Shown here: positions 11,367 to 18,472 of the stretch, piece after piece
Numbering within the stretch: the stretch's first letter is position 1
How the letters are laid out: each line of letters opens with the position of its first letter
From: Escherichia coli
GTDB lineage: Bacteria > Pseudomonadota > Gammaproteobacteria > Enterobacterales > Enterobacteriaceae
Assembly: GCF_048403405.1 (NCBI RefSeq)
Contig: NZ_CP183129.1
Reading direction: 5' to 3' (one strand)
Length of the DNA stretch: 64,000 nt
Position numbers and translations under genes: made by a program
Notes under the pieces: generated by a model
Told to the model about the DNA's origin: nothing
Database searches by the model: none
The model's input: only the letters and a program-made list of their open reading frames with translations

Positions 11367-12362
11367 GTGACCGTGAGAGCACTACTGACCCCTGAAATTG
11401 CCCCGCGTATGGGGATCGTATTGTTCAGACCAGGTTCAGAGCTGATGCCCCTGTTTATGCAGGGGCGTGTCCTGCTGGAGCCTGAGCCGGAACGTTATTC
11501 ATCTTTCGCCAGTGGTGCCGTTCCGGCGGCATCACAACCGCTGGCGGATGATCCTGCCGTTCGGGCCGTGTTCCGCAATGAGGCAGTGATCCGTCGTGCT
11601 GGTGGCGTGGAATGTCTTGAAAGCTGGTTACTTCGTGAAAAAGGCTGCCAGTGGCCTCATTCCGACTGGCACAGCGAGAACATGACCACAATGCGACACG
11701 CTCCGGGTGCAATCCGTCTGTGCTGGCACTGCGATAATCAGCTGCGCGATCAGTTCACGGAACGGCTGGAATCAATGGCAACGGATAACTGTGCCCGCTG
11801 GGTGTTGTCTGTTGTGCGTCGGGATCTCGGTTTTGATGACAGTCACGTTGTGACAATGCCGGAACTGTGCTGGTGGCTGATTCGTAATGATCTGGCGGAT
11901 GCCTTACCGGAAAGTGCAGCCCGTAAGGCACTGAGATTACCGAAGCCTGTTGTGCCGACTGTTACCCGGGAAAGTGACCTTGTGCCTTCGGTTCCTGCCA
12001 CCAGCATCATCCGGGATAAGGCGAAAAAGGTGCTGGCGCTGAAAGTGGATCCGGAGTCGCCGGAGTCTTTTATGTTACGCCCAAAACGTCGCCGCTGGGT
12101 TAATGAAAAGTACACGCGCTGGGTTAAGACACAGCCGTGTGCATGTTGTGGAAAGCCCGCTGATGATCCCCACCACCTGATAGGTCACGGTCAGGGTGGA
12201 ATGGGAACAAAAGCGCATGACCTTTTTGTGTTGCCTTTGTGCAGAAAGCATCACGACGAGCTGCATGCGGATACCGTGGCATTTGAAGAGAAGTATGGTT
12301 CCCAACTGGAGCTGATATTTCGTTTTATCGATCGCGCGCTGGCGATTGGTGTGCTGTCCTGA
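11367..12362 (+). CDS. NinG/DUF968-family protein with C-terminal HNH-like Cys/His cluster
   Basis: 331 aa; CACCGK...HH...CRKHHDELH. Confidence 0.55.
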   Translation: MTVRALLTPEIAPRMGIVLFRPGSELMPLFMQGRVLLEPEPERYSSFASGAVPAASQPLADDPAVRAVFRNEAVIRRAGGVECLESWLLREKGCQWPHSDWHSENMTTMRHAPGAIRLCWHCDNQLRDQFTERLESMATDNCARWVLSVVRRDLGFDDSHVVTMPELCWWLIRNDLADALPESAARKALRLPKPVVPTVTRESDLVPSVPATSIIRDKAKKVLALKVDPESPESFMLRPKRRRWVNEKYTRWVKTQPCACCGKPADDPHHLIGHGQGGMGTKAHDLFVLPLCRKHHDELHADTVAFEEKYGSQLELIFRFIDRALAIGVLS

Positions 12363-13229: not shown

Positions 13230-13305
13230 GGCCCTTTAGCTCAGTGGTGAGAGCGAGCGACTCATAATCGCCAGGTCGCTGGTTCAAATCCAGCAAGGGC
13301 CACCA
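13230..13305 (+). tRNA. tRNA anticodon CAU (Ile2 lysidine/Met type; ileZ-like of lambdoid and Stx phages)
   Basis: Cloverleaf read manually: acceptor ggccctt/aagggcc, anticodon loop cuCAUaa, CCA present. Confidence 0.8.
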
Positions 13306-13312
13306 TCACATA

Positions 13313-13389
13313 CCGCCATTAGCTCATCAGGATAGAGCACCAGCCTTCGAAGCTGGTTGCGCGGGGTTCGAGTCCTCGATGGCGGTCCA
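13313..13389 (+). tRNA. tRNA-Arg anticodon UCG
   Basis: Acceptor ccgccat/atggcgg, anticodon loop cuUCGaa, T-arm ggttcgagtcc. Confidence 0.75.
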
Positions 13390-13402
13390 TTATCTGTACC
13401 CT

Positions 13403-13479
13403 GCGTTGTTAGCTCAACCGGACAGAGCAATTGCCTTCTAAGCAATCGGTCACTGGTTCGAATCCAGTACAACGCGCCA
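13403..13479 (+). tRNA. tRNA-Arg anticodon UCU (argO-like)
   Basis: Acceptor gcgttgt/acaacgc, anticodon loop cuUCUaa, T-arm ggttcgaatcc. Confidence 0.8.
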
Positions 13480-15575: not shown

Positions 15576-15926
15576 ATGCCATCACTAATCCCACGAGCCT
15601 GCCGTAAGCGTGGATGTGCAGGAACAACCACAGACAGTTCTGGTTACTGCGATAAACATCGTGGCGAAGGATGGGTACAGCATCAACGAGGACTGAGTCG
15701 CCACCAGCGTGGCTATGGTTCGAAATGGGATGCCATACGTGCGCGCATACTGAAGCGTGATAATCATCTGTGTCAGAACTGCCTGCGCAATGGGAGAGCC
15801 GTTGAAGCCAGAACTGTGGACCACATCATTCCGAAAGCTCATGGTGGCACGGATGCAGACAGTAACCTGCAGAGTCTGTGCTGGCCCTGTCATAAAGCAA
15901 AAACAGCGCGCGAACGCATCAATTGA
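15576..15926 (+). CDS. HNH endonuclease (terminase-associated)
   Basis: 116 aa; Cys pairs and HxxH; adjacent to terS/terL. Confidence 0.8.
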   Translation: MPSLIPRACRKRGCAGTTTDSSGYCDKHRGEGWVQHQRGLSRHQRGYGSKWDAIRARILKRDNHLCQNCLRNGRAVEARTVDHIIPKAHGGTDADSNLQSLCWPCHKAKTARERIN

Positions 15927-16074
15927 TAACAGCTCCCATCTGCAGGGGAGGGGCGGGTCAAATCTCTGCAACCCTGGCTGTTCAGTACCGCCGCCTGACC
16001 CTTCCTCACATCGCCGCAGGTTCGAAAACTTTTTTTTGGAAATGTGAACAAACGATTGATAGGTAAGACCGATT

Positions 16075-16557
16075 ATGTCAGGACCTCCGAAAACCCCGCC
16101 ACGCCTGCATTTGATTCGAGGCAACCCCTCAAAGCGCCCCGTTAAAGACCACAAAAAAACCGCTAAAAAGGATGAAAAAGGTCTTCCTAAAATTCCGCAG
16201 CATTTAGGGGCTCAGGGGAAGTACTGGTTCAGGCGAATGGCGGAAGAGCTGAATGCGGAAGGGATCATTTCTCAGCTCGATGCACGTGCGCTCGAGTTAC
16301 TGGTGGAAGCCTACACCGAATACCGGCATCACTGCGAAATACTCGATGTTGAGGGTTATACCTACCGCACGAAAACGCAGAATGGCGATGTGCTGATCAA
16401 GGCACACCCGGCTGCTGCGATGAAGGCTGATGCCTGGAAGCGGATCCGGGCGATGCTTGCAGAATTTGGTATGTCACCGGCAAGCCGGGCAAAAGTAAAT
16501 ACCGCCGGACCGGATAATGTTGATCCGCTGGCAGAGCTTTTAAAAGCGAGAGACTGA
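16075..16557 (+). CDS. Terminase small subunit (P27 family)
   Basis: 160 aa, basic N-terminus, directly upstream of large terminase. Confidence 0.75.
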   Translation: MSGPPKTPPRLHLIRGNPSKRPVKDHKKTAKKDEKGLPKIPQHLGAQGKYWFRRMAEELNAEGIISQLDARALELLVEAYTEYRHHCEILDVEGYTYRTKTQNGDVLIKAHPAAAMKADAWKRIRAMLAEFGMSPASRAKVNTAGPDNVDPLAELLKARD

Positions 16558-18314
16558 TGGCAAAAGTGGCTGACGGGATCCGCTACGCCGAACGTGTTGT
16601 TGCAGGAGAAATTGTTGCTGGCGAATTTGTCCGCCTGGCCTGCCAGCGTTTTCTTGATGATCTGAAGTACGGCGAAAAGCGGGGGATTTATTTCAGTGAA
16701 CCCCGTGCGCAGCACATCCTGAATTTCTACAAATTTGTGCCTCATGTAAAAGGGGCACTGGCAGGCCAGCCCATTGAGTTGATGGACTGGCATGTATTTA
16801 TCCTCATTAATATTTTTGGTTTTGTCATTCCGCTGGTCAATGAAGAAACCGGGGAAGTTGTCATGCGCAGCGATGGCAGCGGACGTCCGGTGATGGTGCG
16901 CCGGTTCCGGACGGCGTACAACGAAGTCGCCCGTAAAAACGCAAAATCAACCCTGTCATCGGGTATCGGCCTGTATATGACGGGGGCAGATAGTGAAGGC
17001 GGAGCTGAGGTGTATTCAGCCGCAACCACGCGTGACCAGGCCAGAATCGTGTTTGAAGACGCCAAAAATATGGTCAGAAAAGCCCGGTCGACACTCGGGC
17101 GGTTGTTTGATTTCAACAAGCTGGCGATTTACCAGGAGCAGAGCGCATCAAAATTTGAACCGCTTTCCTCGGATGCAAACAACCTGGACGGTCTGAACAT
17201 CCACTGCGCCATTATTGATGAGCTGCATGCACATAAAACCCGCGACGTGTGGGACGTTCTGGAAACGGCAACCGGTGCCCGTCTGCAGTCCCTGTTATTT
17301 GGTATCACCACGGCTGGCTTTAACAAGGAAGGGATTTGTTACGAGCAGCGTGATTACGCCATCAAGGTATTGCGAGGCTATAACAGCGACGTGGAGGGCG
17401 CTGTAAAAGACGACTCTTACTTTGCGATCATTTACACGCTCGATGAGGGAGATGATCCGTTTGATGAAACGGTCTGGCAGAAAGCGAATCCTGGCCTGGG
17501 CATCTGTAAACGCTGGGATGATCTGCGTCGTCTGGCGAAAAAAGCGAAGGAGCAGGTCTCTGCGCGGGTGAATTTTTTTACCAAACACATGAATGTGTGG
17601 GTCACTGCCGAATCTGCCTGGATGGATATGATTAAGTGGGAGAAGTGCGAATACATTGCTCCACAACATGAGCTGAAAACATATCCCATGTGGGTCGGCG
17701 TCGACCTTGCTCATAAGATTGATATCTGTGCGGCGGCAAAACTCTGGCGAACCGATAACGGACATGTTCATGCTGATTTTAAATTCTGGCTTCCGGAAGG
17801 ACGGCTGGAACGATGCTCGCGGCAGCAGGCAGAACTTTACCGGAAGTGGGCGGAGATGGATAAGCTCATCCTGACGGATGGTGATGTTATCGATCATGCT
17901 CAGATAAAAAGTGACTTACTGGAATGGATTGGCGGTGAAAACCTCAGGGAACTGGGATTTGACCCGTGGAGCGCAATGCAGTTCAGTCTGGCACTGGCTG
18001 AAGAAGGGATACCGCTGGTGGAGGTTCCGCAGACGGTCCGCAATCTGTCAGAGGCCATGAAGGAAACGGAATCACTGGTTTATGCCGGGCGTTTCCATCA
18101 CAGCAATCATCCGGTCATGAACTGGATGATGTCTAACGTTACTGTAAAACCGGACAAAAACGACAACATCTTCCCGAATAAATCCACGCCGGAAGCCAAA
18201 ATCGACGGCCCTGTTGCGCTTTTTACAGCCATGAGCCGCTTTCTGGTAAATGGCGGGGGCGTGAATGACTTTCTGTCCACGCTTGATCCTGATGAGGACC
18301 TGTTAATTCTGTGA
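16557..18314 (+). CDS. Terminase large subunit
   Basis: 585 aa; ATPase and nuclease regions; position. Confidence 0.9.
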   Translation: MAKVADGIRYAERVVAGEIVAGEFVRLACQRFLDDLKYGEKRGIYFSEPRAQHILNFYKFVPHVKGALAGQPIELMDWHVFILINIFGFVIPLVNEETGEVVMRSDGSGRPVMVRRFRTAYNEVARKNAKSTLSSGIGLYMTGADSEGGAEVYSAATTRDQARIVFEDAKNMVRKARSTLGRLFDFNKLAIYQEQSASKFEPLSSDANNLDGLNIHCAIIDELHAHKTRDVWDVLETATGARLQSLLFGITTAGFNKEGICYEQRDYAIKVLRGYNSDVEGAVKDDSYFAIIYTLDEGDDPFDETVWQKANPGLGICKRWDDLRRLAKKAKEQVSARVNFFTKHMNVWVTAESAWMDMIKWEKCEYIAPQHELKTYPMWVGVDLAHKIDICAAAKLWRTDNGHVHADFKFWLPEGRLERCSRQQAELYRKWAEMDKLILTDGDVIDHAQIKSDLLEWIGGENLRELGFDPWSAMQFSLALAEEGIPLVEVPQTVRNLSEAMKETESLVYAGRFHHSNHPVMNWMMSNVTVKPDKNDNIFPNKSTPEAKIDGPVALFTAMSRFLVNGGGVNDFLSTLDPDEDLLIL

Positions 18315-18331
18315 AACAGCTTATTACTGAT

Positions 18332-18472
18332 ATGACCGGGCTGATCGGTTTCGGTCTGCTCACTGCTGGCGTTTATCTGTATGCAGGTCTGCCAGCGTCT
18401 CTGATGCTGTCTGGCTGTTTGTTGCTGCTTTATGCACTGGTGGTGTCCATGAGGAGAAAACATGCTTCTTGA
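18332..18472 (+). CDS. Small hydrophobic protein between terminase and portal
   Basis: 46 codons, TM-like; in-frame GTG at 18311 overlaps terL stop; not in ORF track. Confidence 0.3.
   Translation: MTGLIGFGLLTAGVYLYAGLPASLMLSGCLLLLYALVVSMRRKHAS

What the first reader, a model, noticed from the sequence alone, without database searches (positions are those of the whole stretch)
15927..16074. Candidate cos/packaging recognition region between HNH endonuclease and small terminase
HNH-terminase pairs in HK97-like phages cut at cos next to these genes. The 148-bp gap is GC-rich with short repeats (ggggagggg, gcggg) and a T-run, so it is the likely packaging site and defines the genome ends of the induced phage.
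Basis: inference. Interest (0 to 1): 0.25.

Follow-up and report, generated by a model that had tools for sequence, protein, structure and literature searches.

The report
HK97-type cos site of prophage
The gap between the HNH nuclease and small terminase genes is very probably the prophage's DNA-packaging cut site (cos), homologous to the mapped cos of phage HK97, which is an expected feature.

Summary
Window 15927-16074 lies between a zinc-ribbon HNH endonuclease gene and P27-family TerS and HK97-type TerL genes, in a complete-looking ~41.5 kb lambdoid prophage inserted in yecE. The gap aligns without gaps to cos regions whose ends are mapped or annotated: HK97, SfI, phiP27, Proteus phage Pm34 and Pseudomonas phage D3.

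All of these share one layout:
- A G-rich box (window 15945-15967, GGGGAGGGGCGGGTCAAATCTCT).
- Exactly 29 nt of poorly conserved spacer.
- A cut at (G/T)AC|CG.
- A GC-rich overhang of about 10 nt.
- An AT-rich, TerS-type-specific block.

By homology, the bottom-strand nick falls between 15988 and 15989 and the top-strand nick between 15998 and 15999 (±1). That gives a 10-nt 3' overhang, CGCCGCCTGA. The block at 16007-16037, which includes the T8 run, is the candidate TerS binding site.

The gap is not GC-rich overall (51.4% against 50.9% for the window). It is bipartite, 61% GC on the left and 42% on the right.

This is an ordinary finding. The same module occurs in 1042 of 5426 complete E. 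coli genomes. The one possibly new point is the G-box at a fixed 29-bp distance. It is conserved across phages whose TerS, TerL and HNH proteins have diverged strongly. I found no description of it, and it can be tested in the HK97 in vitro system.

The parts
15576..15926 (+). HNH endonuclease gene with an N-terminal zinc ribbon (CRKRGC...CDKH). It is the accessory nuclease of HK97-type cos cleavage.
   Evidence: Pfam HNH E=1.9e-16. Full-length match to PDB 5h0m, annotated only as 'HNH endonuclease' in that output, E=6e-15; my recollection is that it is the Geobacillus virus E2 enzyme. 37% identity to HK97 gp74 over 70 aa. RefSeq annotates it 'HNH endonuclease'.
15945..15967 (+). G-box GGGGAGGGGCGGGTCAAATCTCT, a conserved upstream cos subsite in the position that cosQ occupies in lambda.
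   Evidence: Single exact occurrence in the window. Found upstream of the cut in HK97, SfI, SfV, phiP27, Pm34, mEp235, Fraca, PhiR49_2 and D3. In 36 non-redundant loci, positions outside the searched 14-mer are also conserved: GGGA at 64-81%, and CYCT with three positions at 86-92% and the Y position at 61% T. It is read in different frames where an HNH ORF overlaps it.
15960..15988 (.). 29-nt spacer of fixed length and variable sequence between GGGTC and the cut.
   Evidence: The length is exactly 29 in the window, HK97, SfI, phiP27, Pm34, mEp235, Fraca, PhiR49_2 and D3 (sequences). Among the 122 G-box occurrences scanned, 59 have AC|YGCC at exactly 29 nt. Mean pairwise identity in the spacer is 35% against 85% for the box, with no indels in a 28-sequence alignment.
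15985..15992 (-). Predicted bottom-strand nick between 15989 and 15988. The minus strand reads 5'-GGCG^GTAC-3', which is AC|CG on the plus strand.
   Evidence: It aligns with the left boundary of the HK97 overhang (TGAC|CGCCGCCAAA), SfI (GGAC|TGCCCGCCCC), phiP27 and the Pm34 record ends. The CG^GT core matches the nick specificity of zinc-ribbon HNH nickases N.phiGamma and N.phiE2 (PMC3592412).
15989..15998 (+). Predicted 10-nt 3' cohesive end CGCCGCCTGA (the cosN overhang). The top-strand nick is predicted between 15998 and 15999, ±1.
   Evidence: Gap-free alignment to the HK97 overhang CGCCGCCAAA (7 of 10 identical), the phiP27 cos-site CGCCCGCCCC, SfI TGCCCGCCCC and Pm34 CGCCCCCTTA. The Fraca record has a chimeric junction at the homologous +1. 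The Pantoea AH07 record boundary aligns 1 nt further right.
16007..16037 (+). Conserved block CACATCGCCGCAGGTTCGAAAACTTTTTTTT, specific to this TerS type. It is the candidate TerS binding site (cosB-like) and includes the T8 run.
   Evidence: 28-29 of 31 positions are identical in Pm34, Fraca and mEp235, whose TerS genes are only 62-71% identical at the nucleotide level, and the block sits at the same distance from the TerS ATG. It is absent from SfV- and phiP27-type cos regions, which have other TerS subtypes. In HK97, TerS binds +15 to +29, a C:G pair plus an A-tract (PMC11331095).
16075..16557 (+). Small terminase subunit (P27 / Terminase_4 family).
   Evidence: Pfam PF05119 E=2e-25. RefSeq 'phage terminase small subunit P27 family'.
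16557..18314 (+). Large terminase subunit of HK97 type (ATPase plus nuclease domains).
   Evidence: Pfam TerL_ATPase and TerL_nuclease. 28% identity to HK97 gp2, E=6e-41.

Best explanation
The gap is the cos site of an HK97-type lambdoid prophage of about 41.5 kb inserted in yecE.

Proposed mechanism: when terminase meets this site on concatemeric DNA, the duplex is cut with a 10-nt stagger. The bottom strand is nicked at 5'-GGCG^GTAC-3', between 15989 and 15988. The top strand is nicked about 10 nt downstream, between 15998 and 15999. This leaves 3' cohesive ends CGCCGCCTGA. TerS binds the conserved A/T-tract block just inside the left end of the virion DNA (16007-16037). TerL and the adjacent HNH endonuclease supply the two nicks, and the HNH enzyme most likely makes the CG^GT nick. 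The G-box lies exactly 29 bp upstream of the bottom-strand nick, at the right end of the packaged genome. It is a conserved cos subsite that probably positions the nuclease complex.

Shown here: the gene context, nucleotide homology to mapped cos sites, the fixed spacing, and the conservation pattern.

Inferred: overhang length and polarity, which protein cuts which strand, the role of the G-box, and TerS binding to the 31-nt block.
For: - Gene context: HNH, TerS, TerL, portal, S78 protease and HK97-fold capsid.
- The HK97 record ends ...GGGGGGGGGGATC + 29 nt ...TGAC|CGCCGCCAAA and starts GTTTGAATTT. The paper's numbering (T16, C:G at 21, A:T at 24-29) fits the record, so these are the mapped ends with a 10-nt 3' overhang.
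- The SfI 10-nt gap TGCCCGCCCC was determined on virion DNA. It sits 29 nt after the same G-box.
- The phiP27 annotated cos-site CGCCCGCCCC is at the homologous position.
- The Pm34 record ends fall at GGAC|CGCCCCCTTA, aligned base for base with window 15988|15989.
- The D3 record ends 29 nt plus a 9-nt GC-rich tail after GGGGCGGGTC, with an HNH gene upstream.
- A viral-contig scan for the G-box 14-mer was analysed. About 90 of the 120 loci have an HNH ORF ending just upstream, and most also show TerS and TerL downstream where the contig extends that far. They span at least 4 TerS subtypes. Among 36 non-redundant sequences, AC ends at offset 38 in 53% and at offset 37 in 22%. The 10 nt after the cut are 80% GC and the next 20 nt are 46% GC.
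- The HNH protein matches PDB 5h0m over its full length. The N.phiGamma/N.phiE2 class of zinc-ribbon HNH enzymes nicks CG^GT.
- The literature model has the HNH enzyme nicking one strand and TerL the other.
- The 31-nt block is more conserved than the TerS coding sequence.
- No promoter-like or terminator-like site and no Rfam family lies in the gap.
Against: - No virion DNA of this prophage was examined. Nick positions rest on homology, and the right boundary is uncertain by ±1. D3 has a 9-nt tail, and the AH07 record boundary aligns 1 nt to the right.
- I took the record ends of Pm34, D3, phiE125 and AH07 at face value as physical ends.
- HK97 gp74 and the Skunavirus HNH enzyme cut non-specifically in isolation, so assigning the CG^GT nick to the HNH enzyme is an inference.
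- The G-box sample was selected by an exact 14-mer, so conservation of those 14 positions is by construction.
- The prophage carries a few pseudogenes, including a truncated side tail fibre, and may not be inducible.
Confidence: 0.85

Rival explanations
1. The gap is only an intergenic spacer that carries expression signals for the head operon (a ribosome-binding site for TerS, a promoter or a terminator). Packaging would start elsewhere, for example from a pac site inside terS with headful cutting.
For: A Shine-Dalgarno-like AGGTAAG sits just upstream of the TerS ATG. The T8 run could be read as a terminator tail.
Against: There are no promoter-like or terminator-like sites. Non-coding blocks are more conserved than the adjacent coding sequence. 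The region is homologous to mapped unique ends in HK97 and SfI. The TerL is of the HNH-associated HK97 cos type.
Confidence: 0.04
2. The site is a genuine cos sequence but a relic. The prophage is defective, so the site is never cut in this host.
For: The prophage has a few pseudogenes: a frameshifted small ORF, partial ea22, a partial methyltransferase and a truncated tail-fibre gene. No induction data are available.
Against: All core modules are present and intact: int, xis, cI, cro, replication, Q, lysis, HNH, TerS, TerL, portal, protease, capsid and tail. Near-identical modules occur in isolated phages such as phi467 and vB_EcoM-606R7. The cos elements show no degeneration relative to relatives.
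Confidence: 0.1
3. The conserved G-box is not a packaging signal. It would instead be an RNA or DNA structure (a hairpin or G-quadruplex in the late transcript), or a signal tied to the HNH gene such as a homing or mobility target.
For: The G-box almost always follows an HNH gene. It contains three G-runs. A weak 5-bp stem can be drawn.
Against: RNAalifold gives only -1.28 kcal/mol with almost no covariation, and there is no Rfam hit. Only three G-runs are present in most variants. The spacing to the mapped cut is fixed at 29 nt while the spacer sequence drifts. In PhiR49_2 a 650-bp insertion separates the HNH gene from the G-box but keeps the G-box-to-cut unit intact.
Confidence: 0.08

Closest known systems
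Cos site of Escherichia phage HK97 (and HK022): 10-nt 3' overhang, gp74 HNH-stimulated cleavage, TerS site at +15 to +29
   Same: Same gene order (HNH, cos, TerS, TerL). Same layout: G-rich box ending (G/A)TCAAATC, a 29-nt spacer, then GAC|CGCCGCC. The overhang is 7 of 10 identical (CGCCGCCTGA against CGCCGCCAAA). An A/T tract lies downstream of the cut.
   Different: TerS is unrelated at the sequence level: HK97 gp1 is not in Pfam Terminase_4 and the window TerS has no PDB hit. TerL is only 28% identical and HNH 37% identical. The HK97 HNH lacks the N-terminal zinc ribbon (PMC3592412). The T-tract lies at +32 to +39 here against +24 to +30 in HK97. The sequence right of the cut is unrelated.
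Cos sites of Shigella phages SfV and SfI and Stx2e phage phiP27
   Same: The HNH 3' end, the G-box and the spacing are homologous at about 78-83% nucleotide identity. All have a 10-nt GC-rich overhang at the same offset. SfI is experimentally mapped and phiP27 is annotated.
   Different: The overhang sequence differs ((T/C)GCCCGCCCC). The region right of the cut differs (GTCGTTTTTTTATACCCGCGAAAAATG) and goes with a different TerS subtype.
Lambda cos (cosQ, cosN, cosB)
   Same: Tripartite logic. An upstream element sits on the right end of the packaged chromosome. In lambda this is cosQ, which is required for bottom-strand nicking at termination. A nicking site follows, then a downstream TerS-binding region with bent A/T-rich DNA (PMC4856287).
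   Different: Lambda makes 12-nt 5' overhangs with a different terminase family and no HNH enzyme. It has three R sites and an IHF site. No sequence homology was found. The single IHF-consensus match here (minus strand, 16049-16061) is not conserved in relatives.
Zinc-ribbon HNH nicking endonucleases next to cos and terminase genes (N.phiGamma, N.phiE2; PMC3592412)
   Same: The window HNH has an N-terminal CxxxxC...CxxH ribbon plus the HNH core. It matches PDB 5h0m over its full length (E=6e-15). The enzymes characterised in that paper nick CG^GT (AC^CG), and that tetranucleotide sits exactly at the predicted bottom-strand nick.
   Different: The nick specificity of this enzyme is untested. 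Some packaging HNH enzymes (HK97 gp74, sk1 HrdP) are non-specific on their own. That 5h0m is the Geobacillus virus E2 enzyme is my recollection, not shown in the tool output.

Membership tests
HK97-type (HNH-associated, 3'-overhang) cos site | Lies between an HNH endonuclease gene and TerS/TerL genes of the HK97 morphogenetic module | tested here: met
   Pfam HNH, Terminase_4, TerL_ATPase and TerL_nuclease, portal, S78 protease and Phage_capsid. RefSeq annotation agrees.
HK97-type (HNH-associated, 3'-overhang) cos site | Nucleotide homology to a cos region whose ends were mapped on virion DNA | tested here: met
   Gap-free alignment to the HK97 ends and to the SfI cos. The G-box, the 29-nt spacing and the AC|CG cut are all shared. 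The overhang is 7 of 10 identical to HK97.
HK97-type (HNH-associated, 3'-overhang) cos site | Virion DNA of this phage carries 10-nt 3' cohesive ends generated at this site | not testable with these tools
   This needs virion DNA (run-off sequencing or read-start analysis).
HK97-type (HNH-associated, 3'-overhang) cos site | TerS recognition sequence with an A-tract a short distance inside the left end | tested here: inconclusive
   A 31-nt block with A4-C-T8 at +9 to +39 is 90-94% conserved among phages with this TerS type. No binding data exist, and the position differs from HK97 (+15 to +29).
HK97-type (HNH-associated, 3'-overhang) cos site | Cleavage depends on or is stimulated by the HNH protein together with TerL | not testable with these tools
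   Known for HK97 gp74. Here it is only inferred from gene adjacency.
Lambda-type cos (12-nt 5' overhang, gpNu1/gpA terminase, R sites plus IHF site) | Lambda-family terminase and a cosB with repeated R sites and a conserved IHF site | tested here: not met
   The terminase belongs to the HK97/P27 families. No direct repeats longer than 7 nt occur in the gap. The only IHF-consensus match (16049-16061, minus strand) is not conserved in mEp235 or Fraca.
pac / headful packaging | Permuted, terminally redundant virion DNA with no unique ends | tested here: not met
   Homologous sites in HK97, SfI, Pm34 and D3 give unique ends. This was not tested directly for this prophage.
Zinc-ribbon HNH nicking endonucleases (N.phiGamma / N.phiE2 class) | HNH beta-beta-alpha-metal core plus an N-terminal zinc ribbon | tested here: met
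   Pfam HNH at residues 66-112. The N-terminal CRKRGC...YCDKH aligns with the ribbon of PDB 5h0m, E=6e-15 over residues 1-114.
Zinc-ribbon HNH nicking endonucleases (N.phiGamma / N.phiE2 class) | Strand-specific nicking at CG^GT (AC^CG) | not testable with these tools
   The site GGCG^GTAC is present at the predicted bottom-strand nick, and AC ends at the same offset in 19 of 36 non-redundant loci. Enzyme activity cannot be assayed here.

The most novel reading that the evidence does not exclude
The G-box (consensus GGGA-GGGGCGGGTCAAAT-CYCT) is a previously uncharacterised, widely conserved cos subsite of HNH-associated HK97-type phages in Escherichia, Shigella, Proteus and Pseudomonas, with a looser variant in Burkholderia. 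It would act as a fixed-distance anchor: the HNH-TerL nuclease complex binds it and places the bottom-strand CG^GT nick exactly 29 bp downstream. That would make it a functional counterpart of lambda cosQ, which is needed for bottom-strand nicking at termination. It would also explain why the DNA site is far more conserved than TerS, TerL or HNH. Current HK97 termination models, which invoke only the TerS site at +15 to +29, would then be incomplete.
Probability: 0.35. Interest if true: 0.5.

Novelty: new member of a known kind. Interest (0 to 1): 0.27.

Why it matters
In practice, the result fixes the predicted virion genome ends at base resolution, ±1. It applies to a prophage module carried by about one in five complete E. 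coli genomes. None of the 11 closest phage records in the phage collection is linearised at this site, so such records could be re-oriented and prophage induction checked by read-start analysis.

For mechanism, two observations bear on a question the HK97 papers leave open: which nuclease cuts which strand, and how the cut position is set. The first is the conserved AC|CG at the bottom-strand nick. The second is the G-box at a fixed 29 bp. Both are directly testable in the reconstituted HK97 system.

Tried and rejected
- **Promoter or terminator in the gap:** none found, against 0.8 and 1.1 expected in shuffles.
- **Known RNA family:** only noise hits outside the gap.
- **Conserved hairpin around the G-box:** hand-drawn stems showed apparent compensatory changes in SfI and Pm34. 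RNAalifold on 28 non-redundant sequences gave only a 5-bp stem at -1.28 kcal/mol, with one covarying pair. Rejected.
- **IHF site:** a perfect WATCAANNNNTTR match lies on the minus strand at 16049-16061. It is not conserved in mEp235 or Fraca, so I treat it as chance or as overlap with the ribosome-binding region.
only 6-7 nt pairs, at chance level.
- **Unbiased sampling of HNH or TerL loci:** The search for related loci on alignments A1 and A2 failed because no stretch was conserved enough. The G-box survey is therefore biased by the exact 14-mer used.
- **Literature search for the G-box or overhang sequences:** only unrelated papers came back. Kala et al. 2014 is not held.
- **Structure homology of TerS to HK97 TerS:** no PDB hit by sequence.
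- **Klebsiella KLB28 and Serratia Opt-148 record ends:** uninformative, because those records are linearised arbitrarily.
- **Pantoea AH07:** ambiguous. Its G-rich box is non-canonical and 12 nt closer to the cut, and its record boundary aligns 1 nt from my predicted top-strand nick.

Full report
**What is there**

Window 15927-16074 is a 148-bp non-coding gap.
- Upstream is a 116-aa HNH endonuclease gene (15576-15926; Pfam HNH, E=1.9e-16).
- Downstream are a P27/Terminase_4 small terminase (16075-16557), an HK97-type large terminase (16557-18314), a portal, an S78 prohead protease and an HK97-fold capsid gene.
- Further upstream lie lysozyme, Rz and Rz1.

A 100% identical copy lies in E. coli ECO_2_R, where RefSeq annotates a complete-looking lambdoid prophage. 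It runs from int and xis through cI, cro, replication, Q, three tRNAs, lysis, HNH, TerS, TerL, head and tail genes to J, Lom and the tail fibres. It is about 41.5 kb long and is inserted in yecE, between yecD and yecN. The window begins about 2.5 kb inside the prophage's left end, and the prophage ends near window 38.9 kb. The HNH-gap-TerS module occurs in 1042 of 5426 complete E. coli genomes and in isolated phages such as phi467 and vB_EcoM-606R7.

**Checking the observation**

The gap is not GC-rich overall. It is 51.4% GC against 50.9% for the window, the 47th percentile of 148-nt windows. It is bipartite, with 61% GC up to 15998 and 42% after. Repeat analysis gives only chance-level 6-7 nt pairs. 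Composition alone would not single this gap out. Conservation does.

**Homology to mapped cos sites**

A sensitive BLAST of 15900-16100 against phage genomes hit phiP27, whose record annotates a 10-nt 'cos-site' under the match, and also SfV and SfI. Reading the sequences shows one shared layout.

| Phage | Sequence around the cut | Basis |
|---|---|---|
| phiP27 | GGGGAGGGGCGGGTC + 29 nt ...GGGAC\|CGCCCGCCCC\|GTCAAA | annotated cos-site |
| SfI | the same box + 29 nt ...CCGGAC\|TGCCCGCCCC\|GTCG | 10-nt TGCCCGCCCC gap found by run-off sequencing of virion DNA (PMC3636060) |
| Pm34 (Proteus) | GGGGAGGGGCGGGTC + 29 nt ...CTAGGAC\| joined to \|CGCCCCCTTACCTCTTTTCAC | record ends |
| HK97 | GGGGGGGGGGATC + 29 nt ...AAATGAC\|CGCCGCCAAA, then GTTTGAATTT at record start | mapped ends |
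| D3 (Pseudomonas) | GGGGTGGGGCGGGTC + 29 nt + GCGCCCCCA | record end, HNH gene upstream |
| phiE125 (Burkholderia) | looser G-rich box, 28 nt, GGGAC\|CGCCCGCTTC | record end |

The HK97 papers state a 10-nt 3' overhang. Their numbering (T16, C:G at 21, A:T at 24-29) matches the GenBank record, so the record's last 10 nt are the overhang.

The window reads GGGGAGGGGCGGGTC (15945-15959), then 29 nt (15960-15988, ending CAGTAC), then CGCCGCCTGA (15989-15998), then CCCTTCC. By homology, the bottom-strand nick is between 15988 and 15989 and the top-strand nick is between 15998 and 15999. The 3' cohesive end is CGCCGCCTGA, 7 of 10 identical to HK97.

The right boundary is uncertain by ±1. D3 has a 9-nt tail. 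The Pantoea AH07 record boundary (CCTGAC|CCTTTTT) aligns one base to the right of CCTGA|CCCTT.

**How general the layout is**

I scanned IMG/VR for the 14-mer GGGGCGGGTCAAAT, which returned 120 stretches, and analysed them in Python.
- **Gene context:** about 90 have an HNH ORF ending 2-90 nt upstream, or overlapping the box. Most of these also show TerS and TerL just downstream where the contig extends that far.
- **Diversity:** these loci span at least four TerS subtypes and HK97-, SfV- and window-type TerL.
- **Level of conservation:** where the HNH ORF overlaps the box, the box is read in different frames (GAGQIS, GRVKSL, GGSNP). The conservation is therefore at the DNA level.
- **Spacing:** 59 of the 122 G-box occurrences have AC|YGCC exactly 29 nt after GGGTC. 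Another group has CGGCG(C/T)GGGG at exactly that offset.

Results for 36 non-redundant sequences (less than 85% identical):
- Positions outside the searched 14-mer are conserved. GGGA on the 5' side is at 64-81%. On the 3' side, CYCT has three positions at 86-92% and the Y position at 61% T.
- The spacer is near-random in sequence (35% pairwise identity) yet has no indels.
- AC ends at offset 38 in 53% and at offset 37 in 22%.
- The 10 nt after the cut are 80% GC, against 46% for the next 20 nt.

In PhiR49_2, a 650-bp reverse-strand gene is inserted between the HNH gene and the G-box, and the unit from G-box through the 29-nt spacer to the cut is untouched. The caveat is that the 14 searched positions are conserved by construction. 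My attempts at protein-based, unbiased sampling failed.

**The right half of the gap**

To the right of the cut, the sequence tracks the TerS subtype. The 31-nt block CACATCGCCGCAGGTTCGAAAACTTTTTTTT (16007-16037) is 28-29 of 31 identical in Pm34, Fraca and mEp235. Their TerS genes are only 62-71% identical at the nucleotide level, and the block sits at the same distance from the ATG. SfV- and phiP27-type sites have a different block.

In HK97, TerS binds +15 to +29, a C:G pair followed by an A-tract whose bendability is essential. By analogy, the A4-C-T8 block is the likely TerS site here. This is inference. The window TerS has no detectable sequence similarity to HK97 TerS.

**Mechanism**

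The literature model for HNH-associated cos phages has the HNH enzyme and TerL each nicking one strand. Three points support it here:
- The window HNH carries an N-terminal zinc ribbon and matches PDB 5h0m over its full length (E=6e-15).
- Xu and Gupta showed that this class (N.phiGamma, N.phiE2) nicks CG^GT, which is AC^CG on the other strand.
- The bottom strand at the predicted left boundary reads 5'-GGCG^GTAC-3'. A nick there, plus a top-strand nick 10 nt downstream, gives a 3' overhang, the polarity known for HK97.

I therefore assign the bottom-strand nick to the HNH enzyme and the top-strand nick to TerL. Confidence in this assignment is moderate, because HK97 gp74 and sk1 HrdP are non-specific in isolation.

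The G-box sits where cosQ sits in lambda, upstream of the nick site on the right end of the packaged chromosome. Lambda cosQ is needed for bottom-strand nicking at termination. A fixed 29-bp distance to the bottom-strand nick fits a distance-measuring anchor for the nuclease complex. This is the most novel reading that the evidence does not exclude.

**Alternatives**

- There is no promoter or terminator, no Rfam family and no conserved secondary structure.
- The IHF-consensus match at 16049-16061 (minus strand) is not conserved in relatives.
- Headful packaging is contradicted by the unique ends at homologous sites in five phages.
- I cannot exclude that the prophage is defective. A few pseudogenes are present, but all core modules are intact.

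**Verdict**

The finding is an ordinary member of a known kind, an HK97-type cos site, in a very common E. coli prophage. The proteins have diverged far more than the site: TerL is 28% and HNH 37% identical to HK97, and TerS is unrelated. The nick-site core and the G-box are nevertheless nearly unchanged. That, together with the strict 29-bp spacing, is the only aspect a packaging specialist might find worth an experiment.

Noticed in passing
L136 (Escherichia phage Evi, LR597642.1) 1385-1510: The Evi record lacks the HNH 3' end, the G-box and the cut site. In their place is an inverted copy of about 120 nt of terS, joined at the T-run. This is probably an assembly artefact at the physical genome ends rather than a real rearrangement.
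   Followed up: partly
L008 (Escherichia phage Fraca, LR597645.1) 1-130 and L135 560-665: The Fraca record starts with a 125-nt TerL fragment fused at CCTC. That is exactly the predicted first base of the left end. The record is terminally redundant across cos. Its G-box variant GGGGAGGGCGGGTA keeps the 29-nt spacing.
   Followed up: partly
L137 (Escherichia phage PhiR49_2) 862-1600: A reverse-strand 171-aa gene of unknown function, about 650 bp, is inserted between the HNH gene and the G-box. It looks like a moron placed just upstream of cos.
   Followed up: no
window 13230-13479: Three phage-borne tRNA genes lie between the Q antiterminator and the lysis genes. ARAGORN calls them CAT (Met; RefSeq annotates this one as Ile), Arg-TCG and Arg-TCT.
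   Followed up: partly
window 11367-12362: The DUF968 protein upstream of Q ends in a Cys/His-rich segment (CACCGKP...HHLIGHG...CRKHHDELH) that looks like a second HNH-like nuclease motif in the same prophage.
   Followed up: no
window 15972-15976: The spacer contains a Dcm site, CCTGG. Related spacers keep CCWGG at the same place, with CCTGG in phiP27 and CCAGG in L060, L115 and PhiR49_2. This may be coincidence or a methylation-sensitive position in cos.
   Followed up: no
L140/L143 (Pantoea phage AH07, MZ501270.1) record ends: AH07 has a non-canonical G-rich box (GGGGAGGGTGGATG) that lies 12 nt closer to the CCTGACCC junction than in the window, roughly one helical turn less. It does not fit the 29-nt rule.
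   Followed up: partly
window 18311-18472: A 53-aa hydrophobic ORF sits between TerL and the portal gene, overlapping both. RefSeq annotates it as hypothetical.
   Followed up: no
L009 (mEp235, PV340540.1) 700-1000: The mEp235 record leaves its HNH endonuclease gene upstream of cos unannotated on the plus strand and calls small reverse-strand ORFs instead.
   Followed up: no
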